A program made the translations under genes and the position numbers. Of a stretch of DNA of 54,464 nt, positions 24,787 through 40,923 are shown in pieces. Source of the stretch: Parcubacteria group bacterium GW2011_GWA2_40_14 (GTDB lineage: Bacteria > Patescibacteriota > Minisyncoccia > Phycocordibacterales > DATDWN01). The stretch is from the NCBI GenBank assembly GCA_000996025.1, contig LBYF01000003.1, positions 1-54,464 on the forward strand. The letters run 5' to 3'. The notes under the pieces are model-generated. The model saw only the letters and a list, made by a program, of their open reading frames with translations, did not search any database and was not told the origin of the DNA. Positions within the stretch are counted from its first letter, which is position 1; each line of letters opens with the position of its first letter.

Positions 24787-26502
24787 TCAAAAAGTCGAAA
24801 AGGTGTACTGCTCCTGTAAGGAGATCGCCAAATGTGGAAGTTCTATGATAAAGGTACTTCCTCTTCCTCGACCGGGAGATTCTACCCAGACTTTGCCTTT
24901 GTGAGCTTCTACTACACCCTTGACGAAGACCAGACCGTAGCCAGTAGCGTTTATGTTGATTTTGAGGGATTCTACTCCTCTACCGCCAGCCTTGAACAAT
25001 CTATCCCTATCCTCCGGAGCAATACCTATACCGGTATCTTTGACAGTCAGTTTTATATTTTTATCATGGCACGATAGAGTAATAGTAATTCCTCCATGCT
25101 CTGTGTAGTTTATAGAATTATCTATCAAGTTTCGGACGGCTTCGCCAAGTTGAGTAGTATCACCGATTATATTGTAATCTCCCGGGGTAATTTCCAGATT
25201 GAGAACCAGTCCTTTTTTGTCGGTATGTTCTTTTTGTTTGGAAACAACATCCTCCACAAGTAGCTTCATATCCAATGGCTTCATGTCGTACGGCAATGTC
25301 CCACTCTCGGCCGAAGCTCCCTTCAGAATTCCTTGGACATAGTTAATCCCAGTATCTGTTTCTTCCAAACCTTTTTCTAAAAGTGGCACGGTGTCAGCAG
25401 GCATAACCCCATAGTCACCAGTCATAAGTTCGGCAAAAATATTTTTGGCATTACCAAACCGCCCCTTAATCTGGTGATTCATAAAATGCATAAGCGACAC
25501 CTGCCCTTCATTTGCCGTTTTTAATTCCCCCGCCAATTTCTCAATCTTTTCCCGTTGTTCAATTTCCTTTTTAACACTTTTTATAAGTAAGTATCCAAAA
25601 ACCATAACCAAAACAAAAGTAATTCCAGTTAAAATTCTATTGGTTACTGTCCTGACAAAGAAAAACTCTGAACCTATAAACACAACAAGTGCTCCGATAA
25701 GAACTTGCGCTCCAAAAACTTTGGCATTAAAAGTTTTATATTTGACTATAATATAAGCCAAAAATGCCAAAAAAACAGGTACTCCAAATATTCCATACTG
25801 ACCAATAGTCCAACTATAATCGCCGAGTACAGAATTTGTGTTAAATAAACTGCCGATAACATTTCCGAATGAAAAAGCGATTAGAAAACCGATGCTACCT
25901 AAAGTTATCAAAAGAATTTTTTGTTTTTCGTTTTTATCTCTTCTTTGTACATAACTCTTTATGACAAACGAGAGTATCCACAGGATAAATATAATCTCAA
26001 TAAAATAACCATAATATGCCATTGGTCCTTCCACTGCGTCTCTATCGCAATTAGAAATATCGTATCCTAAAATAGCCAGTTTGGTGGAAGCAAATATGAC
26101 AGTTGGGGTTAAAAGTAAAAATATTATCAGTTTTTTAGTGAAAGAAATATCTTTCTCATCAATAAACAAATAGAGAAAATGTAGCAGTCCGGCATAAATC
26201 ATTGGTTCTAACAATACTAATATTGACCATGCATACATTGTTAAAGCAGGTTTGTCCGTTGCCCAAATTATAAGGTCATTGAAAAGCCAAATATCCAAAA
26301 GAATTGTGGTTACTAAAAGAATTTTTGTCGCCAGATTTTTACTGCTCTTAAAATATAAAAATGTTACAAGTATAAGAGATGCTACCAGAGGAAAAAGATG
26401 TGAATAATAGATAAGCGGGTCAAAGACATTGTTTGATATAAAAAGAAACCTTACAGAATCCCAATTGCAAGCAGAGATCAAATTTACAACTTCGTTGGTC
26501 AT
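24787..26502 (-). CDS. Membrane sensor histidine kinase (multi-TM N-terminus)
   Basis: About 9 predicted TM segments, then FMNHQIKGRF (phospho-His region) and HATPase blocks (NLIDNSINYT, DTGIGIAPEDRDRLF, GYGLVFVKG). Confidence 0.8.
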   Translation of the reverse strand: MTNEVVNLISACNWDSVRFLFISNNVFDPLIYYSHLFPLVASLILVTFLYFKSSKNLATKILLVTTILLDIWLFNDLIIWATDKPALTMYAWSILVLLEPMIYAGLLHFLYLFIDEKDISFTKKLIIFLLLTPTVIFASTKLAILGYDISNCDRDAVEGPMAYYGYFIEIIFILWILSFVIKSYVQRRDKNEKQKILLITLGSIGFLIAFSFGNVIGSLFNTNSVLGDYSWTIGQYGIFGVPVFLAFLAYIIVKYKTFNAKVFGAQVLIGALVVFIGSEFFFVRTVTNRILTGITFVLVMVFGYLLIKSVKKEIEQREKIEKLAGELKTANEGQVSLMHFMNHQIKGRFGNAKNIFAELMTGDYGVMPADTVPLLEKGLEETDTGINYVQGILKGASAESGTLPYDMKPLDMKLLVEDVVSKQKEHTDKKGLVLNLEITPGDYNIIGDTTQLGEAVRNLIDNSINYTEHGGITITLSCHDKNIKLTVKDTGIGIAPEDRDRLFKAGGRGVESLKININATGYGLVFVKGVVEAHKGKVWVESPGRGRGSTFIIELPHLAISLQEQYTFSTF

Positions 26503-26666
26503 ATTTTCAAAAGATTTTTTATAGAATCCAGAGCGTTTGGGACAGAATTTGCATCAGTAAAAAAAGTTATATCTTCCAAATAAATATAGCGATAAAAAGA
26601 AATGAAAGCAGAAATTATTATCGAAAAAATAAATAATATTAATAATACTTTAGATTTTTTGTCCAT
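26499..26666 (-). CDS. Small membrane protein (55 aa), translationally coupled to the kinase
   Basis: MDKKSKVLLILFIFSIIISAFISFYRYIYLEDITFFTDANSVPNALDSIKNLLKI. Its TGA overlaps the kinase ATG (ATATGA). Below the track cutoff. Confidence 0.4.
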   Translation of the reverse strand: MDKKSKVLLILFIFSIIISAFISFYRYIYLEDITFFTDANSVPNALDSIKNLLKI

Positions 26667-26688
26667 TTAAATTTCTTATATAAAATAT

Positions 26689-27177
26689 CTATATAATATT
26701 TTTATTTCCATTATAAGTCTTATACACTTTTTTAAAATAAGTAGGGATATAAGGCAAGTATTTCTTGAAAGTTCTAGTCGGTAAGTACTGAATTGACCGA
26801 ATAATTTTTCTGCAGTTTTTCTCTCCGCAATTACATTTCATTTTCCACATATCATCTCCTTCAATTATGGAATAGTCTATGGTGATTTCTTCTCCTTCTT
26901 TTATATTCTTAAGAGCAACCATTGTTACCTTACCTTTTATACTGGAATTTGGATTACATGAGTGATTCAAATATTCATTTGGATATTGCGGGTCAATCCA
27001 TCTATGTTTTCCAATTCCTATCCAATCTGGATACGTTAACGACTCTTTTTTATTTCTTGGAACAAAAAGTTTTATTTCTCCCTTAATATGCTGTATAACT
27101 TCGTCTTTTTTAATATTCTCACCGGCAAAAAGACCGATTCTATCTATTTTACTTGTGCTGTGATAAATATGTTTCAT
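26689..27177 (-). CDS. SET-domain protein (lysine methyltransferase fold), the only intact copy
   Basis: GLFAGENIKKDEVI, NHSCNPN, EEITIDYS and post-SET CNCGEKNCRK. Confidence 0.85.
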   Translation of the reverse strand: MKHIYHSTSKIDRIGLFAGENIKKDEVIQHIKGEIKLFVPRNKKESLTYPDWIGIGKHRWIDPQYPNEYLNHSCNPNSSIKGKVTMVALKNIKEGEEITIDYSIIEGDDMWKMKCNCGEKNCRKIIRSIQYLPTRTFKKYLPYIPTYFKKVYKTYNGNKNII

Positions 27178-27350
27178 GTGTTTGCAATTTTAACATATAA
27201 TTTATAAAAAATCTATCTTTTATATTACAGGTGATATTTAATTGTACAACAACCTCGTTAATCTTGACAAGATTTCGCCATTTGATATTCTGTATATAGA
27301 CGCTCTTTTGAGTGTACTATCAAACCCACGAGGAGAAAGGACTTGGAAAA

Positions 27351-27695
27351 ATGGCACCAGTTTTAACACTTCCAGACATTTCGGAAGTCACACCACTTTC
27401 CGACAAAGACCAGCCGATGATCGACGAGATTATTGATGTGTTGCGAAGGCATGGCAACCTAAATCGGTTTGGTCTTGTGCTTCTCCATCAGCATTTTAAC
27501 CTTGCTGATGACGAGGTGTTAGTTGAATCGACCGACAAAGAAAATCGTACTCAAACGACTAAGCCGATAAAGAAAGACGATCTGTCACGGATGAATCATA
27601 CAGAAACGTCATGGCGTCTTGATACAGGAAAGCCGATGATGGCTTGCTCGTGTATTAAGTTCGGTGACGATCATCAGCACCTGAGCAGAGGCTGA
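27351..27695 (+). CDS. Hypothetical protein (114 aa)
   Basis: GGAG-rich SD before ATG 27351. Higher GC than surroundings. Own hairpin downstream. No motif recognised. Confidence 0.5.
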   Translation: MAPVLTLPDISEVTPLSDKDQPMIDEIIDVLRRHGNLNRFGLVLLHQHFNLADDEVLVESTDKENRTQTTKPIKKDDLSRMNHTETSWRLDTGKPMMACSCIKFGDDHQHLSRG

Positions 27696-27702
27696 CTCCA
27701 TA

Positions 27703-27731
27703 CCCCGCTACTTGTAAATAAGGTGGCGGGG
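27703..27731 (+). terminator. Hairpin terminator candidate
   Basis: CCCCGCTACTT / AGGTGGCGGGG stem with a weak T tract. Confidence 0.5.
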
Positions 27732-27758
27732 TAAACTATATTTTAGTATCATAGTTTT

Positions 27759-28448
27759 ATGATTTTTTGGAATCAAAAAGAAGTCCTGTTTAGTGGAATA
27801 TCTGAATACGTCAATAAATACGGGGTAAAATCTGTCCTTGATATAGGCGCGGGCGACGGAAATCTAGCGTTGAAAATATCAAACATTATAAATGACTACA
27901 CTGCCATAGAAAATGACAATAGAAAAATCGAGAATTTGAGAAAACTTAGATTGAAAGTAATAAAAGGAAATTTTCCAGCGGTAAAAATTGCAAAAAAATA
28001 CGATTTAGTTCTTTCTTCACATTCTGTACCTGAAAATATTGAGGAAATCGAACAATTTTTAAAAGAAGCTTGTAGGTTGGTAAAATCAGGAGGTTTATTG
28101 CTCATCATTACCTTTAAGGGCGGAAAAGGAGATGTTTTTAAATTAAAAGAAAAATTAAAAAGAACTGCCGAAATAGCAGACAAGGAGCACTTCGAAAAAA
28201 TAAGTAATACTTTAAGAAAACTGGGAAAGATTAAGATTAAAAAGAAAATAAGTACAATTAAATCGGATAAGTTAAGGGATATTATCAAAATCGTACGATT
28301 TTCTTTAGGAAATTCAAAAAATCAAGAACTTAAGAAAAAAATAATAAGTTTAATGAAAAAACACTTTAAAACAAATGGTAAATACCTTTTTAAATTTGAA
28401 CATCTTTTTCTGTCATTGAAGAAATATGGTCGACAACATGCAAAATGA
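27759..28448 (+). CDS. Class I SAM-dependent methyltransferase
   Basis: VLDIGAGDGNLALKI motif I and GGLLLIITF motif. Confidence 0.7.
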   Translation: MIFWNQKEVLFSGISEYVNKYGVKSVLDIGAGDGNLALKISNIINDYTAIENDNRKIENLRKLRLKVIKGNFPAVKIAKKYDLVLSSHSVPENIEEIEQFLKEACRLVKSGGLLLIITFKGGKGDVFKLKEKLKRTAEIADKEHFEKISNTLRKLGKIKIKKKISTIKSDKLRDIIKIVRFSLGNSKNQELKKKIISLMKKHFKTNGKYLFKFEHLFLSLKKYGRQHAK

Positions 28449-28453
28449 AAAGT

Positions 28454-28543
28454 TTAAAAAAGTATTCCTTTTTTAAAAGATTTTTTTGTAAAAATTCCCT
28501 TCCCGGATATTTTACTTTTTGCAACATATAAATCTTTTTTCAT
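28454..28543 (-). pseudogene. SET-domain gene 5' remnant (29 codons)
   Basis: MKKDLYVAKSKISGKGIFTKKSFKKGILF*. About 92% identical over ~75 nt to the remnant at 30920-30997. Confidence 0.75.
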
Positions 28544-28740
28544 ATATAATGGTATTCTATTTATTCTATCAGATTGATAAAAAATATAATACAATCAAAA
28601 TAATGAAAAACCAAAAAAATATATTTTATAAAAAATCTACCTTTTCACATAAGTCCAGTGTGGATAAAAAATGGTTAATTTGATGATTGACAAAATAGAT
28701 TTTAAGTTTACTATGTAGGGTAGAATTGGGAGGTATGGGT

Positions 28741-29850
28741 ATGAGTTCATTTCAAGTAAAAATAGTTGGGGATTTTTGCAATATACGTTGTACTTATTGC
28801 AGGAATCGTGATTTTGATCAAGATACAAATGTAGTGATGTCTATTGAGAAACTCGAGAAACTCTTTGTCTTTCTCAATTCATTACCACAAGCACAGATTC
28901 GTACGAATTGGCATGGGGGAGAGCCGCTACTTGCGGGCAAAAGATTCTTCAGTCATGTTTTGAGGCTGGAGAGTCAATATCAGCAAAAAATGTGGCGAAA
29001 TGTCGTTCAAACAAACGCCATGCTTGTTGATGATGAGTGGGCCAAATTTTTTCACGATAATAACTTCCTTATAGGAGTGAGTATTGATGGAAGCGAGAAA
29101 ACACACAACAGTGACAGAATTAATGTTGCGGGACGCGATACCTACAAAGAAGCAATGCGTGGTGTGGAAATCCTGCGACATCATGACATTTTTCCTGGTG
29201 TCATCTGCACCGTTACCAAAAAGACAGTGAGATATGCGGAAGAAATGCTTCTTGGTTTGGTGAACGCTGGATTCAAGGATATCGCTTTCAACGCTTTCTA
29301 TAACACAGCATCAGACTGTAATGGAGATACATACGGTCTGACAGATAAAGAGTGGCTGACGTTTCTTATAGAAATATTTGAAACTTGGCTTACTCTCAAC
29401 GACCCTACAGTTCATGTTCGTGAGTTAGATAGCATGCTCGCATGGACCAAGTCCAAGAGCGCTAACTCCTGTGTCTACAAAGGTACGTGCCACCAGTGGT
29501 TTGTCGTGGATTACACTGGGGACATCTATCCTTGTGAGAGGTTGGGTAGGACAACTCACTTCGGTAGTATTGATACCTTGAGAACTTTTCAAGACTTGAT
29601 GGATACTCCAGTCTTTCTCAACTGGAAAGAATCGATAGTTCAACTTCCAAAGAAATGTCAAGCTTGCAGTTTACAGTCATTGTGCCATAATGGCTGTGTG
29701 AGTCATAGAACTGCAGATGAAGAGGGGGTTCCCCTCTATACTTATTGCGAAAGCAGACTCGGTTTCTATGATTACATTATGAGAAGGCTTGGCGGAAAGG
29801 AGGTAAACAACCATGTCACTCAAAAACAGTTCTTTGTTGGAATCCCCTGA
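28741..29850 (+). CDS. Radical SAM enzyme with C-terminal SPASM domain (peptide-maturase/anSME-like)
   Basis: CNIRCTYC (CxxxCxxC), GGEPLL, and SPASM Cys clusters (CVYKGTCHQWFVVDYTGDIYPC, CQACSLQSLCHNGC). GGGAGG SD. ATG 28741 or 28735. Confidence 0.85.
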   Translation: MSSFQVKIVGDFCNIRCTYCRNRDFDQDTNVVMSIEKLEKLFVFLNSLPQAQIRTNWHGGEPLLAGKRFFSHVLRLESQYQQKMWRNVVQTNAMLVDDEWAKFFHDNNFLIGVSIDGSEKTHNSDRINVAGRDTYKEAMRGVEILRHHDIFPGVICTVTKKTVRYAEEMLLGLVNAGFKDIAFNAFYNTASDCNGDTYGLTDKEWLTFLIEIFETWLTLNDPTVHVRELDSMLAWTKSKSANSCVYKGTCHQWFVVDYTGDIYPCERLGRTTHFGSIDTLRTFQDLMDTPVFLNWKESIVQLPKKCQACSLQSLCHNGCVSHRTADEEGVPLYTYCESRLGFYDYIMRRLGGKEVNNHVTQKQFFVGIP

Positions 29851-30013
29851 AGAAGTTAAAAAGCTCCAATCTCAACTGTTAGAGAATCTGGCGCTTCAAG
29901 ACGCATTTGGTCGGATCGAGGATCCTAGTCGCTTTTCATCGGGAATACCAAAAATCACGAGCTATGATGATTTCCACTACGACGATTGTGGATACTCTGA
30001 TGCTCCGACGTAG
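29813..30013 (+). CDS. 66-aa candidate precursor peptide
   Basis: AAAGGAGG SD inside the 3' end of the rSAM gene, with a 38-nt overlap. MSLKNSSLLESPEEVKKLQSQLLENLALQDAFGRIEDPSRFSSGIPKITSYDDFHYDDCGYSDAPT has a single Cys in a C-x3-D context. A strong terminator follows. Confidence 0.55.
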   Translation: MSLKNSSLLESPEEVKKLQSQLLENLALQDAFGRIEDPSRFSSGIPKITSYDDFHYDDCGYSDAPT

Positions 30014-30071
30014 ACCATGATCAATGACAACAGCAAAAACCGACTCGGAGGAAATCACCAGTCAGTTAAAA

Positions 30072-30101
30072 AGCGGGTTCGCAAAAACCCGCTTTTCTTT
30101 T
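30072..30101 (+). terminator. Rho-independent terminator
   Basis: AGCGGGTT/AACCCGCT stem followed by TTTCTTTT. Confidence 0.8.
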
Positions 30102-30112
30102 AATATGAACGT

Positions 30113-30901
30113 ATGATTAATAAAAATATTTTAATGTCCTATGACGAGTATTCAAAAATTCAGCATGAGACTCCATATTTTTATATTTTTCGATCAGGAG
30201 GTCGGTTAACTTATTATTTCGGTTCTAATCATTCTCATGATCCAAATCACCCGCAATTCAATTTATTAAGGAAAAAATGGAACGAATTTACCAGTGAGAC
30301 TAGAGCTGTGAAAACGGTAGTTATTGTGGAAGCACATGAAATAGCTAAATTAGAAGCTACCATGGAGGAATCTATTATCAAGCATGGTGAGTCAGGCGCT
30401 GGGGCCTATTTGGCGTATGAATTTGAGTCATTGCTTATTTTTGGAGAACCTCATAATGATAAAATAATTGCCCATTTACTTAGAAATTTTTCTAAAGAAG
30501 AAATCCTCTTGTGGCATGTATGTCAGGCTATAAAATTTTGGCAACAGCACAAAATGGGTAGAAGCATACAAGAATTTCTGTCAAATCAAACGCAGAAATA
30601 TCGTAGATTACTAAATTGGCCGGACTTAGTTATATCTGTAGAGCTTATTAATACAATATATAAAAAGCTATTTAATCGAGAGCTAAATATTGATAATGAA
30701 AAAACACTCTCTGAAATCACCACTCCCGTAAGCATTCAATCGAGGATCAATGAACTATCTAGAAGTCAATCTATATATAGAAATGAATATGTATTGGGTC
30801 AGATAGAGAAATATTGGAGCGAAGGATACAACATCTTTGTAATTTACGGGGCTGGTCATGCAGTAATGCAAGAACCTGCTATCCGTAGTTTAGTAAGCTA
30901 G
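30113..30901 (+). CDS. Hypothetical protein, possibly TraB/PrgY/GumN/Tiki-superfamily
   Basis: YFGSNHSHD (GxxH), VVIVEAHE and the C-terminal VIYGAGHAVMQEP (GAxH) fit the superfamily pattern. Weak, by-eye call. Confidence 0.4.
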   Translation: MINKNILMSYDEYSKIQHETPYFYIFRSGGRLTYYFGSNHSHDPNHPQFNLLRKKWNEFTSETRAVKTVVIVEAHEIAKLEATMEESIIKHGESGAGAYLAYEFESLLIFGEPHNDKIIAHLLRNFSKEEILLWHVCQAIKFWQQHKMGRSIQEFLSNQTQKYRRLLNWPDLVISVELINTIYKKLFNRELNIDNEKTLSEITTPVSIQSRINELSRSQSIYRNEYVLGQIEKYWSEGYNIFVIYGAGHAVMQEPAIRSLVS

Positions 30902-30919
30902 TTTCTAAATATTTTAATC

Positions 30920-30997
30920 TCATATTTTAAAAGATTTTTTTGTAAAAATCCCCTTCCCGGATATTTGACTTTTTGCAACGTATAGATCTTTTTTCAT
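30920..30997 (-). pseudogene. SET-domain gene 5' remnant (25 codons)
   Basis: MKKDLYVAKSQISGKGIFTKKSFKI*. Confidence 0.75.
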
Positions 30998-31031
30998 ATT
31001 TTATACATTCAGTATATTATAAAAAGTAATT

Positions 31032-31463
31032 TTAATTATTTTCTATTTCATTAACAACTTCCAATAACTTTTTTCTATAGTTTCCTATAATTCTATGGTC
31101 AGCTTTTGGAATAACGATAACTTTCCATCCACATTTTAGAGTTTTTGCAACCCTTTGAATTTCTTTTAAACACCACTTTTCTTTCTCGCCAACAAGAAAG
31201 ATTATTTTTTTTACTTTAAGAGTTTTTAGACTTTCTGCTGGAGTTGGTGAACACATAATAAGTGTTTTTACTTTATTTTTTTCAGCATGTATATAGGCTA
31301 GAATACAACCAAGACTGAACCCTACTAATACATCCACCCTTCCTATTTTGGGAGTAATGGTACTTTTGTTCCAGTCAATTCTAGGAATATGAAAATACTT
31401 TGAAAGAGACTTGTACTCAGACAAATCGCCAAGACCATATAAAAATGTGATTGCCTTTTTCAT
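31032..31463 (-). CDS. Small serine-hydrolase-like protein (alpha/beta fold?)
   Basis: GFSLG nucleophile-elbow motif and a late ADH motif. Only 143 aa. Confidence 0.5.
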   Translation of the reverse strand: MKKAITFLYGLGDLSEYKSLSKYFHIPRIDWNKSTITPKIGRVDVLVGFSLGCILAYIHAEKNKVKTLIMCSPTPAESLKTLKVKKIIFLVGEKEKWCLKEIQRVAKTLKCGWKVIVIPKADHRIIGNYRKKLLEVVNEIENN

Positions 31464-31473
31464 AATAAATGAT

Positions 31474-31499
31474 GAAAGACAGACTGAAATCTGTCTTTC
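31474..31499 (-). terminator. Hairpin between the DUF397 gene and the hydrolase gene
   Basis: Perfect 10-bp stem GAAAGACAGA/TCTGTCTTTC. Confidence 0.5.
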
Positions 31500-31505
31500 T
31501 GCGAG

Positions 31506-31745
31506 TTAAATATCAAACTCGCCTTTCTTGGCGCCATCCAGAAACGCATTCCATTCTGAATGGGTGAAGAACAGAGTGCCGTTGGCACGGTTCTTGCTAT
31601 CGCGGACAGCAACACCTTCAGGTTTGATTGCCACTTCAACGCAAACATATAACTTGCATCGCAAAGTACTTGATGATGTTTTGAAGTCGCCTTCCATGAC
31701 CTTGAACGATTTGTCCTGGCCTTGTTGGGCCGGTCCTGCTTTCAC
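31506..31745 (-). CDS. DUF397-domain protein
   Basis: FKTSSSTLRCKLYVCVEVAIKPEGVAVRDSKNRANGTLFFTHSEWNAFLDGAKKGEFD matches the DUF397 pattern (KSS.S....CVEVA....V.VRDSK...G..L.F....W.AF...K.GEFD). GTG start with GGAGG SD. Confidence 0.7.
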   Translation of the reverse strand: MKAGPAQQGQDKSFKVMEGDFKTSSSTLRCKLYVCVEVAIKPEGVAVRDSKNRANGTLFFTHSEWNAFLDGAKKGEFDI

Positions 31746-31855
31746 TTTTTTCTCACCTCCAATCCGAAAGAGCTAAAGTAAGTCACAGTTTGCTACCGAT
31801 GACTCCTGATTATAATCATATAGCATTATAATTTGTTGTCAACTATATTTCAGTC

Positions 31856-32371
31856 TTAATTTTCACTAGCTGTTTTAATTTTTTCCACTATAGCTGACCA
31901 GCTTTCGACTTTTGTCACTTTTGACAAAAATTGTTTGAACTCGTCAATTTCTGCTTGGTCAGGCTGATATAAAAACAGATGAGGCACAGTATTAACCATG
32001 TGACTTAAAACCTCAAGACGATCATCGACAAAACATGAAACGTTATTATCGCTACAAATTTTATCTTTTTCATGCCTTTCTCTGCAAAAGAAAACATTTT
32101 CTGGTTTTACTCCAGTTTTTGTGTAAAAATTATTATCCTTCAGCCAAGCTAAAATTTTTTCTTGTGCCCACGGGGTACATTTTGATATCAAAAAAATGTT
32201 CCCTTGAAATTTATTATCATTTAATTTTTTAATAGCATCAAACATGCCCTCTGCGGCGGGAATGGTCGAATATCGTTCCTCATGCAAAGTCTTATCTTCT
32301 TTATCTGTAAGACGATGATTAATAATAACATTACCAATATCAATACCCAGAGATTCTTTTTTTATTGTCAT
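31856..32371 (-). CDS. Hypothetical protein, paralog 1 (HAD-like layout, degenerate motif I)
   Basis: LGIDIGNVII ... FVDDRLEVLSHMV. Paralogous to 32436..32930. Start MTIKKE at 32371. Confidence 0.55.
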   Translation of the reverse strand: MTIKKESLGIDIGNVIINHRLTDKEDKTLHEERYSTIPAAEGMFDAIKKLNDNKFQGNIFLISKCTPWAQEKILAWLKDNNFYTKTGVKPENVFFCRERHEKDKICSDNNVSCFVDDRLEVLSHMVNTVPHLFLYQPDQAEIDEFKQFLSKVTKVESWSAIVEKIKTASEN

Positions 32372-32406
32372 AATAAAAATAATTATACACAAAAGTTAAC
32401 AAAATA

Positions 32407-32432
32407 CAGCCCCTCGACGGTTCGAGAGGCTG
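32407..32432 (-). terminator. Hairpin terminator between the two paralogs
   Basis: CAGCCCCTCGA/TCGAGAGGCTG stem. On the minus strand TATTTTGTT follows. Confidence 0.6.
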
Positions 32433-32435
32433 TTG

Positions 32436-32930
32436 CTAAACAAGCAGTGTTCGGACAATTTCATCCCACGATGTGACCAATTGAACATGAGGTAGAAAGT
32501 CTTGATACTGCTTGACTTCTTTTTGTTGTGGTTTAAGTAGGTACAGATTTTTCACCTTGTCAACAAGATAACTAAGTACTTCAAGACGATCATCAACGAA
32601 GTGAGTTGCTTGATACAAATCACATATCGAAGACTTGTCACGTCCATTTTTAGTCCTCATCACTTGTGCTGGATAAATACCAGTCCTACTGAAGAAGTCA
32701 TGCGACTTCAACCAAGACAAGATTTTTTGATCGGCAACATCCGAAGCGTTATAAACTACGAATATGTTGCCTGCAAATCTTTCCTGATTAAGCTGCCACA
32801 AAGCCTCGATGACTCCTGGCATCTGTGGAATCACATTATAATCTCCAGATTGAACAAACTCTGGAGTTGTCCCGAATCCTACGTGATCAATGATCACGTT
32901 TCCCAAATCAACACCAAAACTTTCTCTCAT
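32436..32930 (-). CDS. Hypothetical protein, paralog 2
   Basis: FGVDLGNVIIDH ... FVDDRLEVLSYLV. Same block order as 31856..32371 (GNIF, ILxWLK, F(Y/F)xxTG). Confidence 0.55.
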   Translation of the reverse strand: MRESFGVDLGNVIIDHVGFGTTPEFVQSGDYNVIPQMPGVIEALWQLNQERFAGNIFVVYNASDVADQKILSWLKSHDFFSRTGIYPAQVMRTKNGRDKSSICDLYQATHFVDDRLEVLSYLVDKVKNLYLLKPQQKEVKQYQDFLPHVQLVTSWDEIVRTLLV

Positions 32931-33033
32931 TACTCACCCACTTTCTAGATCTAATCTATTATCTACTATACATAACTTTATTTTTGTTGTCAAATCAAAT
33001 TTCAAAACATAATTTTTATAAATTCTCTCAACT

Positions 33034-33150
33034 TCATCCAGATTTTATTCCAGACAGAAGACATTTTGTATTCAACAAATTTTTAATATTCTCCCCGGCA
33101 AAAAGACCGATTTCATCTATTTTACTTACACTATGATAAATATGTTTCAT
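33034..33150 (-). pseudogene. SET-domain gene 5' remnant (38 codons)
   Basis: MKHIYHSVSKIDEIGLFAGENIKN, then unrelated sequence. About 90% nt identity to the first ~70 nt of the intact gene at 27108-27177. Confidence 0.8.
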
Positions 33151-33236
33151 ATTTTTTATAGTATATCATATAAAATTCTGTTTCTTCAATATCACTATTT
33201 TAATAGCTTGAAATTATACAATAAAGCCAAATTTTA

Positions 33237-33245
33237 TGGTATAAT
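33237..33245 (+). promoter_or_regulatory. Extended -10 promoter candidate (TGgTATAAT)
   Basis: TGGTATAAT, 17 nt before ATG 33263. Implies a very short leader. Confidence 0.4.
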
Positions 33246-33262
33246 AGCCAAACTCACAAACT

Positions 33263-33934
33263 ATGCAAAATATTTTTGAAAACAAATCAAAAGATGTCCT
33301 TGTTTTGTTTTCTGGTGGCAGAGATTCTTCTTCTGTCGCGGCTCTATTAGCTTTGGCTGGATATAAGATAAAACTATATACCTACCAAGCCGGTCTGCCG
33401 GAACTGACCGGACCACGAGGAGATTCCGCGCCAGATATTAGACATAAAGAACTTACACAAGCTTTTCCTGAAGATATTGACAGAGAAAGAATTATTGAGG
33501 GCAGTACATATTTGATTAGAAAACTAGCCATAGAAAAAACAAATATTGAACATGTTATCTACCCTATCGCCTTGGCGCTTGCGGTACACGCTAATGCCGT
33601 TTGCTATTGCTTAAAAAACAACATAAACACGATAGCTTCCGGATATTCCGGTTATCAAGCAAAAGAAGACAGGTATATTGAACAGAGCGGTGATTTTGTT
33701 TCACTGACTAAAGAATTTTTAGAGGAATATGATATCTCATATCTTACGCCAGTTATAGAAAAGTCTAAACTTGAAGTAATGGATATTTTGGAACGGCACA
33801 ATATCAGTTCCAATTCTCTTGAAAATAAATCTGTTTTTGGAGGAATTTCTTTTGATAAAGAAAAAGCCAAAGCTTTCTGGAAATCTTCTATTTCTTTATG
33901 TAGGGAATTTATAAAAAATATGCAAACCAGTTAA
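33263..33934 (+). CDS. PP-loop ATP pyrophosphatase (adenine nucleotide alpha-hydrolase, QueC/ExsB-like size)
   Basis: VLVLFSGGRDSS (SGGxDS PP-loop), 223 aa. Confidence 0.7.
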   Translation: MQNIFENKSKDVLVLFSGGRDSSSVAALLALAGYKIKLYTYQAGLPELTGPRGDSAPDIRHKELTQAFPEDIDRERIIEGSTYLIRKLAIEKTNIEHVIYPIALALAVHANAVCYCLKNNINTIASGYSGYQAKEDRYIEQSGDFVSLTKEFLEEYDISYLTPVIEKSKLEVMDILERHNISSNSLENKSVFGGISFDKEKAKAFWKSSISLCREFIKNMQTS

Positions 33935-33938
33935 AAGT

Positions 33939-34538
33939 ATGATAAAAAAAGATGCAACGTTATTGGTGACTTCTTCCTTATTAAAGAAAGCTGTGTATTT
34001 TGCGGCCAAAAAACATGACGGGCAATATCGCAAAGGAACAGATGTGCCATATTTTGCTCATCCAGTCTTGGTGGCATTAGGCGTTTTTAAATATTCACAG
34101 GATGAAAACGTGCTGGCAGTGGCAATTTTACACGATGTGATGGAAGATTGCGACGTTACATATACGGAACTGAAAGAGCTATTCGGCAGTAAGGTGGCCA
34201 ATATTGTCAAGGAAGTGAGTTCTCCGACAAATATACCGGTAAAAAACAGAAGCTGGAAAGATAGAAAGGTGTCGTATATGCGGCAAATTAAAAATATTTC
34301 AAAAGAAGCTTGCATTATCGTGGCGGTTGATAAAATGACCAATATGCAAGCGTATTTCGGAGCTACTGAAGCCAACAACAAAAAAAGTCTGGGTAAGTTC
34401 GGAGGTACATTAACGGATTATTTTTGGTATTATGGAGAAATATATAATATACTAAAATCAAATCTTGGAAATCATCCTGTTATAAAAGAATACGAAAAGC
34501 TTTTAAAAAATCATGAGAAAAACTTGCAAAAAGACTAG
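33939..34538 (+). CDS. HD-domain (p)ppGpp hydrolase-like protein (small alarmone hydrolase)
   Basis: AAKKHDGQYRKGTDVPYFAHPVLVA and AILHDVMEDCDVTYTELKELFGSKVANIVKEVS match the RelA/SpoT hydrolase (HD_4) blocks. Confidence 0.8.
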   Translation: MIKKDATLLVTSSLLKKAVYFAAKKHDGQYRKGTDVPYFAHPVLVALGVFKYSQDENVLAVAILHDVMEDCDVTYTELKELFGSKVANIVKEVSSPTNIPVKNRSWKDRKVSYMRQIKNISKEACIIVAVDKMTNMQAYFGATEANNKKSLGKFGGTLTDYFWYYGEIYNILKSNLGNHPVIKEYEKLLKNHEKNLQKD

Positions 34539-34578
34539 TATTCCACTAAGCTACTGTTAGAAAGGATGGTAAAAAAAG

Positions 34579-35067
34579 ATGGGTCAAGAGTTGATTCTCT
34601 TGTATCGAAAACTAATCGGTTGTTCCATTGAGTTTATTGCGGACGAGATTGCCACGACAGTTAAGCCGGTACTTTCGCAAAGTCCGACTATCAGCTACCG
34701 AATCAAAAGTCAAGACACACTGGCAAAAAAGATGATTCTGGTGAAGACAGAATCAATTATTGATATTGACGATGTGTATGCTTTCCGGATTCTCGTTTCC
34801 TCAGCGAACGAAGCATACTTGGTTCTTAAGGCGCTGACGAAGTCTTTCCGAGGTTTTTTAGACCATGACTATATTGCCAATCCAAAGACCCGTCCTGACA
34901 AACCTCATCTAGATGGAAAAAGTCTTAAGTTGCTTCAGTTCATCGCTTACAAAAACAACGTTCCATTTGAAATACAAATCACGACTTTTGAATGGAACGA
35001 GAGCAATGAATTGCTTCACGACGAATACCACCGAGAAAAATATCCAATTATAGACCATTCAGATTGA
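34579..35067 (+). CDS. RelA/SpoT-type nucleotidyltransferase (small alarmone synthetase; toxSAS candidate)
   Basis: YRIKSQDTLAKKM, DVYAFRILV and FEIQITTFEWNESNELLHDEYHREKY match the synthetase-domain blocks. Only 162 aa. Confidence 0.7.
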   Translation: MGQELILLYRKLIGCSIEFIADEIATTVKPVLSQSPTISYRIKSQDTLAKKMILVKTESIIDIDDVYAFRILVSSANEAYLVLKALTKSFRGFLDHDYIANPKTRPDKPHLDGKSLKLLQFIAYKNNVPFEIQITTFEWNESNELLHDEYHREKYPIIDHSD

Positions 35068-35073
35068 TAAGAA

Positions 35074-35187
35074 CTAATCTGAAGGGTCTTTTTTGTCTGC
35101 AACCAGTTTTTTTAATGTTAATATATCTTCTCCGACAAAGACGCCCATTCCATCTATTTTACTTTGAGCATGATATATTTGTTTCAT
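35074..35187 (-). pseudogene. SET-domain gene 5' remnant (37 codons)
   Basis: MKQIYHAQSKIDGMGVFVGEDILTLKK... Its upstream ATTTTATATAGTATATCAT is shared with the remnant at 33150. Confidence 0.75.
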
Positions 35188-35276
35188 ATTTTATATAGTA
35201 TATCATCCGTTTCATTGACAATAAAAGTGATTTGTGTAAAATAACATACAGATTTATGAAGAAAGGAGGTGAAAAT

Positions 35277-35348
35277 ATGGGATACCTGTATGCTGACAAG
35301 CCGGGTGTGGATAAACCACCACATCTTCCCAGACCGCGTCCAAGGTGA
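35277..35348 (+). CDS. 23-aa proline/arginine-rich peptide (oncocin-like core) or leader peptide
   Basis: AAAGGAGGTGAAAAT-ATG (ideal SD and spacing). MGYLYADKPGVDKPPHLPRPRPR*. Not in the track (short, and masked by the artificial 5' extension of the peptidase ORF). Confidence 0.5.
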   Translation: MGYLYADKPGVDKPPHLPRPRPR

Positions 35349-35355
35349 CAAAACA

Positions 35356-35385
35356 AAACGGGAGGATAGAGATATCTTCCCGTTT
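35356..35385 (+). terminator. 13-bp hairpin 8 nt after the peptide stop (terminator/attenuator candidate)
   Basis: AAACGGGAGGATA-GAGA-TATCTTCCCGTTT, followed by CAAATTTATTT (interrupted T tract). Confidence 0.55.
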
Positions 35386-35406
35386 CAAATTTATTTAAAA
35401 TTTTAT

Positions 35407-37401
35407 ATGGAAAAACTTAAAAAAGACAAGTATGCTTTTTTTGAAAAAAATACGGAGAGAACCGAAAAATGGATACTGTCAGAACAGTCCAAAACAACGG
35501 ATTATTTCAAAAATAACTCATATAAGAAAAGACTTTTCAAGCGGTTGGAAAAGATAAAAGACATTGATGAAAAGTTTCTCCCAGTCATACGAGGAGAAAT
35601 GTATTTTTTCCGTTGGAGAAAAAAGGGTGAACAGGTCTCTTCTTTGTATATGCAGAAAAATGCCAAATCAAAACAGGAAAAAATACTGGATTGTAACGCT
35701 ATGTTTAAAAAACACGGTTTGGTCGTAACTGACTGGACTGTTTCTAAAACGGGTAAGCTTCTTTCATATTCTGTTTCTAAATCAGGAAATGACAAATCAT
35801 CAATCCATGTCATAGATATTCAAAAAAGAAAAAATTTAACTGACTTTATTCCGGAAGAGATATATCCTGAATTCGAATGTTGGATGCCGGATGAGAGCGG
35901 TTTTTATTATAGCAGAAATAATCCCGGTACATCAAAAGAAGATGTAAAAATGCAAAATAAAATCTATTTTCACAGGATTGGCCACGGTTTTGCAAACGAC
36001 AGATACTTCTTCGGTAGAGACCTGAGCAAAACAGACAGAGTGCAAATGAAAATATCGGATGATGGGAATTATTTTCTTGTTACCGTTTTTGATTTTGCAC
36101 ATGAAAAAGAAAATGCAGAGATATACTTGGGAATTAGCTCCAACAAAAAGATAATCAGAATTCTCGGTAAAGAAAATTGCTTGCGATACCCGGTCTTGCA
36201 TAGAAACTGCGTCTATATCTTAAGTAATAAAGACACTCCTCACTGGAAAATTGAAAAGGCTTCCGTAAAAAATTTATTGGAAGGAAAGAAGAATTGGCGG
36301 GTTATAATCAAAGAAAATAAAAACCGAGTGATAGAATCTTTCAGTTTTATACAAGATAAAATGTTTTTAATCACACTGGAAAATGTTTCCTCTCATATCG
36401 GCGAATACACTCTATCTGGAAAATATAAGAGAAATATCAAACTGCCAGCTATAGGCACAGTATCCAAAATATATTGCCAAAAAGAAGGCAATGAGTTATT
36501 TTTCGCTTTTTCCTCTTTTGTTTTTCCAAAAGTCATATACAATCTTTCATTAAAAAATGATAAATTATCCGTTTTCTTTCAAAGAAAAATTTCAAATTCT
36601 TTAGAAAATACGACGGTAAGACAACATTTCTTCAAATCAAAAGACGGGGTTAAAGTTCCTATGTTTTTAATTCATAAAAAAACAATAAAAAAAGACGGCA
36701 ACAATCCCCTGCTTTGCTACGGCTATGGCGGTTTTGGTACGTCGTTAACGCCGTCTTTTGACCCGGGTATTATTCCTTTTCTGGAGGATGGCGGGATATA
36801 CGCGGAGATAAACATTCGAGGAGGAGGCGAATTCGGCGAAAAGTGGCACGAAGCCGGAAAATTATTCAATAAACAAAATTCTTTTGATGATTTTATATCC
36901 GGAATTAAATATCTTTACAAAAATAAATACAGTCGGCCTGAAAAAACCGCCATATTCGGTTGGAGCAACGGAGGACTGCTGGTTGGAGCAGTCGTAACTC
37001 AAGAGCCGGAAATATGCAAAGTGGCTGTTATCGGCGCTCCAGTTTTAGATATGGAAAAGTATTACTTATTTGACGGCGGCCGGTATTGGATACACGAATA
37101 CGGAAACCCTAAAAATAAAAGATATTTGGAAAATCTCCTTTCATATAGTCCGTATCACAATATACAAAAAGAAACAAGCTATCCTTCAATGCTTATCTTG
37201 AGCGCCAGAGAAGATGACAGGGTTCATCCAATGCATGCGTATAAATTTGTGGCTAAAATGAGAGATATTGCAAGACTGAAAAATCCTCTGCTGTTGCGAT
37301 TGGAAGAAAAAGCCGGTCATAGCGGAGCAAACGGCATGAATAAATCAAATGAACAACAAGCGGACATATTGTCTTTTATATACAAAGAATTGAGAACTTA
37401 A
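35407..37401 (+). CDS. Prolyl oligopeptidase (S9A family)
   Basis: N-terminal KYAFFEKNTERTEKWILSEQSKTTDYF (PYRWLED-type region), beta-propeller, catalytic GWSNGG, D and H (AGHSG). Start MEKLKKD at 35407 rather than 35269. Confidence 0.9.
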   Translation: MEKLKKDKYAFFEKNTERTEKWILSEQSKTTDYFKNNSYKKRLFKRLEKIKDIDEKFLPVIRGEMYFFRWRKKGEQVSSLYMQKNAKSKQEKILDCNAMFKKHGLVVTDWTVSKTGKLLSYSVSKSGNDKSSIHVIDIQKRKNLTDFIPEEIYPEFECWMPDESGFYYSRNNPGTSKEDVKMQNKIYFHRIGHGFANDRYFFGRDLSKTDRVQMKISDDGNYFLVTVFDFAHEKENAEIYLGISSNKKIIRILGKENCLRYPVLHRNCVYILSNKDTPHWKIEKASVKNLLEGKKNWRVIIKENKNRVIESFSFIQDKMFLITLENVSSHIGEYTLSGKYKRNIKLPAIGTVSKIYCQKEGNELFFAFSSFVFPKVIYNLSLKNDKLSVFFQRKISNSLENTTVRQHFFKSKDGVKVPMFLIHKKTIKKDGNNPLLCYGYGGFGTSLTPSFDPGIIPFLEDGGIYAEINIRGGGEFGEKWHEAGKLFNKQNSFDDFISGIKYLYKNKYSRPEKTAIFGWSNGGLLVGAVVTQEPEICKVAVIGAPVLDMEKYYLFDGGRYWIHEYGNPKNKRYLENLLSYSPYHNIQKETSYPSMLILSAREDDRVHPMHAYKFVAKMRDIARLKNPLLLRLEEKAGHSGANGMNKSNEQQADILSFIYKELRT

Positions 37402-37414
37402 CATTATCAGAAAT

Positions 37415-37445
37415 CCCTCACCAGTCTTTGTAAAACTGGTGAGGG
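37415..37445. terminator. Bidirectional terminator
   Basis: Perfect 11-bp stem CCCTCACCAGT/ACTGGTGAGGG between convergent genes. Confidence 0.8.
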
Positions 37446-37446
37446 G

Positions 37447-38022
37447 TTATATTTTCCTCTCCTTTCTTTTTGGAAAAAACAGAAACCAGAGAAGAACTCC
37501 GTCTAAGACAAAGAGCCAGACCGGATATACAATTTCACCAAATGTCATTTGCCGGATAGCAAAGAGATTGATGAAATTTCCGGTTTGAGTCAGCGTCCAG
37601 GCGAATTTGTCTTCTTCCTTTGGATGTTTTCTGGTTTTTTGGATCGTTGGCCACAGAGCAAAGGTGTCAGTGGTCAACGCGGCAATAAGCGCCACATCTG
37701 GCCGTTTGAAAACCCAGAGAACAATCAAACTGACAACAGAACCCAAGATACAGAAATTTTCACCAACTTCTTTTTGCTTTTTTCCATATCTTATTGAAAG
37801 CAAAGCGATGGTAATGATACCAATCACTTCGCTTCTGGCAACCCACAAGGTTTCCTTGGCTCCAGCGGCCTCTGCGCTAAAGTAGAGCGTTACTGCCAGC
37901 GGAGACCAAATCCACCATGTGGTCCGACTTGGTTTGGTTTCTCCCCTAAATATGGATAGGATGTAAAATCCATATCCAAGAAGAGAAAATATACCGGCAA
38001 CTTTCCCAAAAATTTCTTGCAA
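37447..38022 (-). CDS. Integral membrane protein, unknown function
   Basis: About 6 hydrophobic segments. TTG start preceded by AAGGAGG. Confidence 0.6.
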   Translation of the reverse strand: MQEIFGKVAGIFSLLGYGFYILSIFRGETKPSRTTWWIWSPLAVTLYFSAEAAGAKETLWVARSEVIGIITIALLSIRYGKKQKEVGENFCILGSVVSLIVLWVFKRPDVALIAALTTDTFALWPTIQKTRKHPKEEDKFAWTLTQTGNFINLFAIRQMTFGEIVYPVWLFVLDGVLLWFLFFPKRKERKI

Positions 38023-40749: not shown

Positions 40750-40923
40750 GAGTGTATCTCCTTTCTATATCTTTGTCATGTAATTAATAACACGACTTAG
40801 TTTGGTTAGAACTAATCTGTCATTTATAATATAGAGATGACTTTTATTGTCAATGATTCTATAGGTTTGTAATATGGGGAAAAGATTATATTTTATGAAT
40901 GCTTTGTGAGTTATAATTGTTTT

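What the first reader, a model, noticed from the sequence alone, without database searches (positions are those of the whole stretch)
26689..35187. Five cassettes in a row, each bounded by a 5' stub of the same SET-domain gene: serial integration at one site
One intact SET-domain gene (26689..27177, minus strand) is followed to the right by four same-orientation copies of only its promoter-proximal end.
- 28454-28543: MKKDLYVAKSKISGKGIFTKKSFKKG...
- 30920-30997: MKKDLYVAKSQISGKGIFTKKSFKI*
- 33034-33150: MKHIYHSVSKIDEIGLFAGENIKN...
- 35074-35187: MKQIYHAQSKIDGMGVFVGEDILTLKK...

Homology always stops at about codon 22-27. Stubs 4 and 5 also share ~20 nt upstream of the ATG (ATTTTATATAGTATATCAT).

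Between successive stubs lie unrelated gene sets.
- A 114-aa protein plus a methyltransferase.
- A rSAM/SPASM enzyme plus a peptide plus a TraB-like protein.
- A hydrolase plus a DUF397 protein plus two paralogs.
- A PP-loop ATPase plus SAH plus SAS.
- The Pro-rich peptide plus prolyl oligopeptidase.

This is the footprint expected when elements integrate repeatedly into the 5' end of a target gene while bringing a replacement 5' end. Each event displaces the previous stub outward. No integrase, transposase or phage gene is present in the window, so the mobilising machinery is either elsewhere or unknown.
Basis: partly seen in the sequence, partly recalled or inferred. Interest (0 to 1): 0.8.

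Follow-up and report, generated by a model that had tools for sequence, protein, structure and literature searches.

The report
Gene-module array bounded by SET-gene stubs
In one tiny groundwater bacterium, about 10 kb of unrelated accessory gene modules sits exactly where a conserved gene should start, and each module is separated from the next by a leftover copy of that gene's first ~24 codons, which looks like repeated insertion at one spot by machinery that is not visible here.

Summary
One intact SET gene (26689-27177, minus strand) is preceded by four same-orientation copies of only its promoter-proximal ~95 nt. All four copies stop within about 6 nt of each other, inside the A-tract of the conserved Lys-Lys-Gly codons.

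In 56 of 76 related Paceibacterota loci a membrane-protein gene lies directly upstream of SET. In this window 10.3 kb (27178-37446) separates them.

- The stubs differ mostly at synonymous sites, so each was once the working 5' end of a SET gene.
- Two stubs belong to a different SET clade that occupies the same locus in other lineages.
- Two of the stub-bounded modules occur as intact modules in other CPR genomes, with no SET gene nearby.

Serial insertion at the SET 5' end is therefore the best reading.

Several points remain open or count against a strict integrase model:
- More than 20 assemblies carry the same array, so no polymorphism was seen.
- No recombinase lies in the 54 kb.
- No two-sided core sequence is conserved at the junctions.
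- No stub lies next to the membrane gene.
- The only other case (L186) has different breakpoints.

Site-specific and microhomology-driven joining cannot be separated. This is a new variant of tandem accretion. Interest is moderate.

The parts
26689..27177 (-). Intact SET-domain gene (162 aa). Its first 24 codons plus ~22 nt upstream form copy a1 of the repeated unit. It carries Asp25 where the family has a near-invariant Gly.
   Evidence: Pfam SET E 2.4e-14; alignment A2; repeat family D1
27178..28465 (+). Module B: a divergent intergenic region with a 27-nt element X (27195-27221) and a sigma70-like promoter, a 114/127-aa protein (27312-27695) and a class I methyltransferase (27759-28448).
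   Evidence: The same 2-gene module occurs in a Taylorbacteria contig, L210 7592-8684 (65% and 52% aa).
28466..28550 (-). Stub a2: type-B SET 5' end (MKKDLYVAKSKISGKGIFTKKSFKKG), ATG at 28543. Homology ends after TAAAAAAGGA.
28551..30919 (+). Module C: an intergenic region with a second copy of element X (28619-28645), a radical SAM/SPASM peptide maturase (28741-29850), a 66-aa peptide (29813-30013) and a 262-aa protein (30113-30901).
   Evidence: An orthologous 3-gene block is in L129 6770-8884, 75% nt identity, running exactly from the first start codon to the last stop codon.
30920..31004 (-). Stub a3: type-B SET 5' end, ATG at 30997, 94% identical to a2 over 24 codons. Homology ends after TAAAA.
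31005..33078 (-). Module D (genes on the minus strand): alpha/beta-hydrolase-like (31032-31463), DUF397 (31506-31745), and two paralogs of 178 and 164 aa (31856-32392, 32436-32930) with their own promoter at 32993-32965.
   Evidence: paralogs 39% identical, E 3e-45
33079..33172 (-). Stub a4: type-A SET 5' end, ATG at 33150, 90% nt identity to a1 over 23 codons. Its upstream element Y is shared with a5. Homology ends after TAAAAA.
33173..35106 (+). Module E: QueC-like PP-loop ATPase (33263-33934), HD_4 hydrolase (33939-34538) and a RelA_SpoT small alarmone synthetase-like protein (34579-35067).
35107..35205 (-). Stub a5: type-A SET 5' end, ATG at 35187, 73% nt identity to a1, with an 8-nt insertion just before the A-tract. 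Upstream element Y is present.
35206..37414 (+). Module F: a promoter (35215-35242), a 23-aa Pro/Arg-rich peptide ORF (35277-35348), a hairpin (35356-35385) and a prolyl oligopeptidase (to 37401). It lies inside the insertion but has no stub on its far side.
37415..38022 (-). Far flank of the insertion: the 191-aa membrane-protein gene (37447-38022) and its terminator hairpin (37445-37415). In relatives this gene lies directly upstream of SET.
24787..26666 (-). Near flank: the conserved small ORF (55 aa) and the 7TM histidine kinase that follow SET in relatives.
   Evidence: the kinase follows SET in 65 loci

Best explanation
The stretch 27178-37446 is an accessory-gene island built by repeated insertion of foreign gene modules at one point, the 5' end of the SET gene. 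This happened in a lineage whose ancestors had the membrane gene immediately followed by SET.

Each event joined incoming DNA to the resident SET gene inside the A-tract of codons 23-25 (Lys-Lys-Gly). The incoming DNA carried its own promoter region and its own first ~24 SET codons, so an intact SET gene was regenerated next to the gene body. The previous promoter and 5' end were pushed outward as a stub. The newest module is therefore B and the oldest are E and POP.

The incoming 5' ends came from at least two SET clades, and so from different donor lineages.

- **Shown:** the insertion relative to synteny, the common breakpoint, the former coding function and mixed ancestry of the stubs, and the portability of two modules.
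- **Inferred:** the order of events, and that the joining was done by a sequence-specific recombinase supplied in trans. My split is about 0.55 site-specific against 0.45 microhomology or illegitimate joining at the A-tract, given that serial insertion is true.

The array is now fixed in the sampled population. It may be a fossil rather than an active system.
For: 1. **Synteny.** A membrane-gene homolog ends less than 300 nt upstream of SET in 56 of 76 loci. The kinase follows SET in 65 loci. In the window the gap is 10,273 nt (closest relatives).
2. **No cargo near SET elsewhere.** No cargo gene has a homolog within 10 kb of SET in about 70 relatives.
3. **Common breakpoint.** All four stubs end within T-AAAAAA-GG. 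No 3' SET fragment exists.
4. **Former function.** pS far exceeds pN between copies: a1-a4 0.25/0.07, a1-a5 0.68/0.18, a2-a3 0.22/0.02. All keep their ATG and reading frame.
5. **Mixed ancestry.** The type-B stubs match the single SET gene of L043, L054 and L038 (21/26 aa), which sits at the same locus in those genomes.
6. **Portable modules.** Module C in L129 and module B in L210 are the same discrete gene blocks elsewhere, with no SET nearby. The methyltransferase and 262-aa families are tiny and patchy.
7. **Own promoters.** Each module has its own sigma70-like promoter.
8. **Second lineage.** L186 also has 5' SET fragments next to the membrane gene, then cargo, then intact SET genes, again with pS 0.63 and pN 0.07.
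9. **Independent assemblies.** The array is identical in independent assemblies.
Against: - No presence/absence polymorphism of any module was seen in more than 20 contigs of the species.
- No integrase, transposase, relaxase or phage gene lies in 54 kb.
- There are five 5' copies for five cargo units, and no stub lies between the POP gene and the membrane-gene terminator. Either POP arrived by another route or the native stub was deleted.
- The cargo-side flanks of the junctions are unrelated, except for a marginal 11/13 match between a4 and a5 (p about 0.045). A-tract lengths differ (4, 5, 7, 6). This is not what a classical two-sided core site predicts.
- Stubs were found in only 2 of about 150 distinct SET loci, and the L186 breakpoints differ (codons 17 and 85).
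- The upstream elements X and Y combine with types A and B in all four ways, which points to extra recombination among the copies.
Confidence: 0.55

Rival explanations
1. Serial import without any dedicated recombinase. DNA segments of the form cargo - promoter - SET came from related genomes that already carried cargo between the membrane gene and SET. They were taken up by natural transformation. One end joined by homologous recombination in or beyond SET. The other end joined by illegitimate, microhomology-mediated recombination at the long A-tract of the resident SET gene, in the manner of homology-facilitated illegitimate recombination or transformation-made merodiploids.
For: - Genomes with stub-less cargo upstream of SET exist: L048 with 4.3 kb and L126 with a divergent CYTH gene.
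- This model explains five copies for five cargo units with no missing stub.
- It fits the variable A-tract lengths at the junctions and the unrelated cargo-side flanks.
- It fits the different breakpoints in L186.
- No recombinase lies in the window.
- Transformation is known to create partial duplications (PMC3784515, found).
Against: - Four of four joints fall in the same A-tract, although SET has other A-runs.
- Type-B donors are only ~50% identical in protein to the resident SET and kinase, which is too diverged for the homologous arm.
- The incoming cargo ends are trimmed to 18-45 nt after the last stop codon in three modules, which looks more precise than random fragment ends.
Confidence: 0.27
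2. The stubs are remnants of a former tandem array of full-length SET paralogs (types A and B). Each was later truncated by deletion or overwritten by cargo.
For: - Tandem SET-A/SET-B pairs are common in relatives, in about ten of ~70 genome loci and more in the metagenome loci.
- pS far above pN is also expected for paralogs that were once functional.
Against: - It requires four independent truncations at the same ~6-nt site.
- No 3' remnant of any kind exists.
- No relative has more than two adjacent SET genes or cargo between tandem copies, apart from L186.
- The cargo lies between the copies and maps to portable modules.
Confidence: 0.08
3. The repeated unit is kept because it works as a reusable promoter/leader module (divergent promoters for the cargo operons, or a small expressed peptide). 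It was copied internally to drive newly acquired genes, and is not a by-product of integration.
For: - Three of the four stubs and the intact gene sit back-to-back with a cargo operon that starts 80-180 nt away.
- The stubs keep their ATG and reading frame.
Against: - The cargo promoters found by the scan lie outside the repeated ~95 nt.
- Module D is not divergent from its stub.
- Internal copying does not explain two SET clades, or the excess of synonymous change.
Confidence: 0.05
4. Assembly or binning artefact, in which chimeric joins at a short repeat created the array.
For: Some same-species contigs end inside or near the array: L004 at ~33011, L006 at ~27357, L005 at ~31852.
Against: - The full array is colinear at 99.7-100% identity in contigs assembled independently with different assemblers and from different samples. 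These include ENA ERZ5996431, JGI 3300009031, GCA_001824095.1, GCA_001825405.1 and ERZ978281.
- The stubs share no exact repeat long enough to mislead an assembler.
Confidence: 0.01

Closest known systems
Tandem accretion of site-specific integrative elements and their decayed derivatives (CIMEs, cis-mobilizable elements) at the end of a target gene, for example ICESt1/ICESt3-related islands at fda in Streptococcus thermophilus (review PMC5704250)
   Same: - Units lie head to tail in one orientation.
- Each is separated by a direct repeat that is a partial copy of the target gene's end.
- The intact gene is regenerated only at one end of the array.
- The units themselves lack integration genes.
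   Different: - The target is the 5' end of a protein-coding gene, not a 3' end or a tRNA gene.
- The units are only 1.3-2.4 kb.
- No integrase, relaxase or remnant of one lies anywhere in 54 kb.
- The repeats are 64-94% identical and belong to two gene clades.
- No conserved core lies on the element side of the junctions.
- The host is a CPR bacterium.
SXT/R391 integrative conjugative elements, which insert into the 5' end of prfC and supply a new promoter and 5' coding sequence (from my own knowledge; not checked in a paper here)
   Same: Insertion is into the 5' coding end of a conserved gene. The element brings replacement 5' codons and a promoter, so the gene stays functional.
   Different: SXT is a ~100-kb self-transmissible element with its own tyrosine integrase. 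Here the units are tiny, integrase-less and stacked four to five deep.
Integron cassette arrays
   Same: Both are a one-orientation array of small (1-4 gene), promoter-poor to promoter-bearing modules with unrelated accessory functions. No recombinase lies inside the modules, and the array grows at one end.
   Different: - No intI gene was found.
- The inter-cassette repeats are not attC-type imperfect palindromes. Folding z-scores are -0.2 to -2.6 with no common structure.
- The repeats are copies of a host gene's 5' end.
- Most cargo operons point away from the platform gene and have their own promoters.
SCCmec-type composite islands at the end of rlmH(orfX), and Xer-dependent IMEX/dif-module arrays (from my own knowledge)
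   Same: These are stacks of cassettes, many lacking their own recombinase. They are delimited by short direct repeats of the attachment sequence, and recombination is supplied in trans (Ccr or host XerCD).
   Different: - SCC targets a 3' end with 15-nt repeats.
- IMEX and dif modules are bounded by 28-nt dif-like sites.
- Neither kind of site was recognised here.
- Here the repeat is ~95 nt of promoter plus coding sequence.
Homology-facilitated illegitimate recombination and transformation-generated merodiploids in naturally competent bacteria (PMC3240628, PMC3784515)
   Same: These processes can add foreign DNA next to a homologous anchor and create partial duplications without any mobile-element machinery. 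This matches the lack of a recombinase, the ragged A-tract junctions and the variable breakpoints in L186.
   Different: Their joints are normally scattered. Four joints at one site, and donors as diverged as the type-B clade, are not expected.

Membership tests
Integron | intI tyrosine integrase gene next to the array | tested here: not met
   No Phage_integrase or any recombinase hit by Pfam, NCBIfam or PHROGs in any ORF of the 54-kb window
Integron | attC sites: imperfect palindromes that fold as single-strand hairpins at each cassette boundary | tested here: not met
   DNA folds of both strands of all five repeat units give z-scores of -0.16 to -2.6, with no shared hairpin architecture
Tandem accretion of integrative elements / CIME | Direct repeats that are partial copies of the target gene's end flank each unit, with the intact gene at one end only | tested here: met
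   Five same-orientation copies of -22..+72 of SET, of which only a1 is joined to the gene body
Tandem accretion of integrative elements / CIME | A cognate integrase (in a neighbouring functional element or elsewhere in the genome), or remnants of integration/transfer genes | tested here: not met
   None in the window.
Tandem accretion of integrative elements / CIME | Conserved core (identity segment) present on both sides of every junction | tested here: inconclusive
   The gene-side sequence is conserved and all junctions lie in T-AAAAAA-GG. The element-side flanks are unrelated, except for an 11/13 match between a4 and a5 (p~0.045).
Tandem accretion of integrative elements / CIME | Excision or presence/absence polymorphism of units | tested here: not met
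   All contigs of the species carry the same array. Raw reads were not available, so rare excision is untested.
SXT/R391-like 5'-end integration | The element supplies a replacement promoter and 5' codons that keep the target gene intact | tested here: inconclusive
   The intact gene has an ordinary promoter-like site and an in-frame a1. The stubs were once functional 5' ends. Whether a1 was brought in or is native cannot be told from 24 codons.
IS / transposon | Transposase gene, terminal inverted repeats, short target-site duplication | tested here: not met
   No transposase. No inverted repeats bracket the modules. The repeat is ~95 nt, not a short duplication.
Xer-dependent IMEX / dif modules | 28-nt dif-like XerC/XerD sites at the module boundaries | not tested
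   No dif consensus for CPR bacteria was on hand. By eye, no dyad-symmetric 11-6-11 site is shared by the type-A and type-B junctions.
Prophage / phage-derived island | Phage structural or replication genes; att match in viral contigs | tested here: not met
   PHROGs gives only two hits of unknown function. There are no stub matches in IMG/VR, and viral SET homologs are distant at <=39%.

The most novel reading that the evidence does not exclude
Some Paceibacterota may have a cassette-capture platform of a new kind. Small integrase-less gene modules would each carry a mimic of the promoter and first ~24 codons of a conserved SET gene. A trans-acting, still unidentified recombinase would insert them at the conserved Lys-Lys-Gly A-tract of that gene. 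This would be functionally like an integron, with a host gene's 5' end serving as both attachment site and repeat. It would be the first cassette system described for CPR bacteria.
Probability: 0.15. Interest if true: 0.8.

Novelty: new variant of a known kind. Interest (0 to 1): 0.55.

Why it matters
CPR/Patescibacteria have tiny genomes and few recognised mobile elements, and how they gain accessory genes is largely unknown. This locus records at least four successive gene gains at one nucleotide-scale site. The donors belong to different lineages, and the site is next to a conserved membrane-protein/SET/7TM-kinase operon. If a dedicated recombinase is behind it, that would define a new cassette-type gene-capture mechanism and a handle for engineering these uncultivated bacteria. 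If not, it is an unusually clean natural example of repeated illegitimate insertion at one hotspot. In either case the stubs provide a ready-made diagnostic for finding such islands.

Tried and rejected
- **attC-like hairpins.** I folded both strands of all five units and found no common structure.
- **Structured RNA or tRNA target.** Rfam and ARAGORN find only a tRNA-Trp at 7434-7505, far from the locus.
- **Phage origin.** Two exact-pattern scans of IMG/VR for stubs found nothing. Viral SET homologs are all distant.
- **Defence-island annotation of the cargo.** PADLOC gives only generic domain hits.
- **Hidden recombinase among unannotated ORFs.** Pfam at E<=1, NCBIfam and PHROGs were all negative. 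The 451-aa ORF at 40906-42261 is a secreted Pro-rich/beta-rich protein.
- **3' SET remnants.** None found.
- **Other stub arrays.** I searched 70 GTDB-representative loci and 80 metagenome loci, about 1.9 Mb of flanks. Only L186 turned up.
- **Closer relatives.** I looked for polymorphism in closer relatives, but the nearest SET is 81% identical and sits on a 1.3-kb contig.
- **GC content as a marker of foreign origin.** Cargo genes range from 0.29 to 0.475 against a core of 0.393 +/- 0.049. This is heterogeneous but not decisive.
- **Apparent indel in L082.** It lies at the POP/membrane-gene junction and is only a scaffold gap of Ns.
- **dif-like site.** A resemblance near a1 was considered and dropped because the type-B copies do not share it.

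Full report
**1. What is there**

The window is a chromosomal stretch of a CPR bacterium (Paceibacterota). It is probably Candidatus Zambryskibacteria. That is an inference from the neighbouring GenBank accession series and from the names attached to homologs. The window is full of housekeeping genes: several aminoacyl-tRNA synthetases, UvrA, UvrB, PheS, ribosomal protein L9 and DnaB.

An intact SET-domain gene lies at 26689-27177 on the minus strand (Pfam E 2.4e-14). Upstream of it, on the same strand, are four copies of only its promoter-proximal end. Their ATG codons are at 28543, 30997, 33150 and 35187. I call the five copies a1 (the intact gene's own 5' end) to a5 (the outermost stub).

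At the DNA level they form two families:
- **Type A:** a1, a4 and a5. a4 is 90% and a5 is 73% identical to a1 over 22-23 codons.
- **Type B:** a2 and a3, which are 94% identical to each other.

A SET profile run against the six-frame translation of 26-38 kb finds the full gene and the four stubs and nothing else. The stubs end at profile positions 23, 24, 25 and 23, and no 3' SET fragment exists. When the copies are aligned with full-length genes from other genomes, every breakpoint falls inside the T-AAAAAA-GG that encodes the conserved Lys-Lys-Gly. Similarity among the copies begins about 18-26 nt upstream of the ATG, so the repeated unit is roughly -22 to +72.

The array is not an assembly artefact. 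It is colinear at 99.7-100% identity in contigs from independent assemblies and samples.

**2. It is an insertion into a conserved operon**

In relatives the gene order is a ~190-210-aa multi-pass membrane protein, then SET (sometimes two tandem SET genes), then a ~55-aa ORF, then a 7TM histidine kinase.
- A membrane-gene homolog ends less than 300 nt upstream of the first SET gene in 56 of 76 loci.
- The kinase follows SET in 65 loci.
- The same order holds in the closest relatives that could be retrieved.

In the window the membrane gene is at 37447-38022, which is 10,273 nt from SET. Its terminator hairpin is conserved in position with that of the nearest genome, L011. The POP gene's stop codon follows only 14 nt after the hairpin.

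None of the 13 cargo genes has a homolog within 10 kb of SET in any relative. The whole stretch 27178-37446, POP included, is therefore inserted DNA.

**3. The stubs were once working 5' ends of different origin**

Differences between the copies are concentrated at synonymous sites. The pS/pN values are 0.25/0.07 for a1-a4, 0.68/0.18 for a1-a5, 0.51/0.18 for a4-a5 and 0.22/0.02 for a2-a3. All copies keep their ATG and an open frame up to the breakpoint. They therefore diverged while being translated as part of functional SET genes, not as dead copies made in place.

The type-B stubs are closest (21/26 aa) to the single SET gene that occupies the same locus in other lineages: L043, L054 and L038. 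In some genomes types A and B sit in tandem.

**4. The stub-bounded units are real modules**

- **Module C** (radical SAM/SPASM maturase, peptide, 262-aa protein) has an orthologous block in L129. It aligns at 75% nt identity exactly from the first start codon to the last stop codon. There it lies next to a paralogous 7TM kinase, with no SET gene or stub nearby.
- **Module B** (127-aa protein plus methyltransferase) is the same two-gene unit in a Taylorbacteria contig, again with no SET nearby.

Each module has its own sigma70-like promoter. The GC content of the cargo genes is heterogeneous.

**5. How it was probably built**

The simplest history is serial insertion at the SET 5' end. Each incoming unit joined the resident gene at the Lys-Lys-Gly A-tract and brought a promoter and first ~24 codons that regenerated SET. 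The previous 5' end was left outside as a stub. This is the geometry of tandem accretion at attachment sites (PMC5704250), transposed to the 5' end of a protein-coding gene.

Two points argue for sequence-specific joining. The breakpoint coincides in four of four stubs, and it does so across two SET clades that share little DNA identity except at this conserved motif.

Several points argue against a classical integrase:
- No recombinase lies in the window.
- No conserved sequence lies on the cargo side of the junctions.
- A-tract lengths at the junctions are 4 to 7.
- There are five copies for five cargo units, with no native stub next to the membrane gene.
- The upstream elements are mosaic. 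Element X is shared by a1 and a2. Element Y is shared by a3, a4 and a5. So X and Y combine with types A and B in all four ways.

**6. A second, different example**

Among about 150 distinct SET loci, only L186 (a Hainich groundwater contig) also has 5' SET fragments. Its layout runs in this order:
- the membrane gene;
- a 17-codon stub plus a hairpin;
- an 85-codon fragment with a homopolymer frameshift;
- 2.9 kb of cargo;
- two intact SET genes;
- the kinase.

The 85-codon fragment differs from the intact gene with pS 0.63 and pN 0.07. The phenomenon therefore recurs, but with other breakpoints. That keeps a recombinase-free route in play: import of cargo-plus-SET segments from genomes such as L048 or L126, which have stub-less cargo upstream of SET, with an illegitimate joint.

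**7. Verdict**

The 'serial integration at one site' reading is the best-supported history. The mobilising mechanism is unresolved, and there is no sign that the array is still active.

It is a new variant of a known kind (tandem accretion or cassette arrays) in a phylum where such things are undescribed. Literature searches for the SET gene or for such islands in these bacteria found nothing relevant. Interest is moderate at 0.55.

Noticed in passing
window 35215-35407 (+): There is a 23-aa ORF, MGYLYADKPGVDKPPHLPRPRPR (35277-35348). It has a near-perfect Shine-Dalgarno sequence (AAAGGAGGTGAAAATATG), an 11/12 sigma70 promoter (35215-35242) and a hairpin right after it (35356-35385). It lies just upstream of the prolyl oligopeptidase. 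Its core VDKPPHLPRPRP is almost identical to the insect proline-rich antimicrobial peptide oncocin (VDKPPYLPRPRPPRRIYNR), a sequence confirmed in the literature. A ribosome-targeting PrAMP-like peptide gene next to a prolyl peptidase in a bacterium deserves its own study.
   Followed up: partly
L186 7067-7550: A 115-aa gene is flanked by two perfect 33-nt direct repeats that contain a hairpin (TTAATAATGCGGAAGCCTTGCTTCCGCAAACAA). The first repeat starts exactly at the breakpoint of the 85-codon SET fragment. It looks like a mini-cassette with att-like or terminator repeats.
   Followed up: partly
window 24787-27177 and 37447-38022; loci L007-L209: The order membrane protein, SET methyltransferase, ~55-aa ORF, 7TM (AgrC-like) histidine kinase is a widely conserved gene cluster in Paceibacterota. 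It is often found with two or three tandem SET paralogs. Its function is unknown.
   Followed up: partly
L127 4860-11400, L129 5099-10760, L210 700-8700: Homologs of the window's cargo modules (rSAM-peptide-262aa, and 127aa-methyltransferase) lie next to a second, paralogous 7TM histidine kinase locus in other CPR genomes, together with NUDIX and methyltransferase genes. The flanks of 7TM kinase genes may be general variable regions, or these genes may work with the kinases, for example in peptide signalling.
   Followed up: no
L048 5523-9800: Another Zambryskibacteria genome has a 4.3-kb stub-less insertion between the membrane gene and SET. It carries a phosphoglycerate-mutase-like gene, a NUDIX gene, an ATP-grasp-like gene and an asparagine synthase gene. 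The junction is therefore a recurrent insertion spot.
   Followed up: partly
window 27195-27221 and 28619-28645 (-): A 27-nt element (AAAAGRTAGATTTTTTATAAAWTATAT) occurs only twice in the window, in the intergenic regions of modules B and C. It lies at different distances from the SET-type ATG (-43 and -101). Zero matches are expected by chance. Its role is unknown.
   Followed up: no
window 27103-27105 (codon 25 of SET): The intact SET protein has Asp at position 25, directly at the junction site, where more than 90% of homologs have Gly (alignment A2). The string AAAAAAGAC recurs 27 nt past the breakpoint of stub a5. This could be a junction scar or a lineage marker.
   Followed up: no
window 33263-35067 (+): Module E pairs a small RelA_SpoT synthetase-like protein with an HD_4 hydrolase and a QueC-like PP-loop ATPase. 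The pairing is reminiscent of toxic small alarmone synthetase/hydrolase toxin-antitoxin pairs. PADLOC gave no specific hit.
   Followed up: no
window 3938-4807, 8751-9746, 43186-44439; 42326-43207, 45724-47079: One 54-kb stretch of a reduced genome holds three class-I Trp/Tyr-type tRNA synthetase paralogs and two prephenate dehydratase genes.
   Followed up: no
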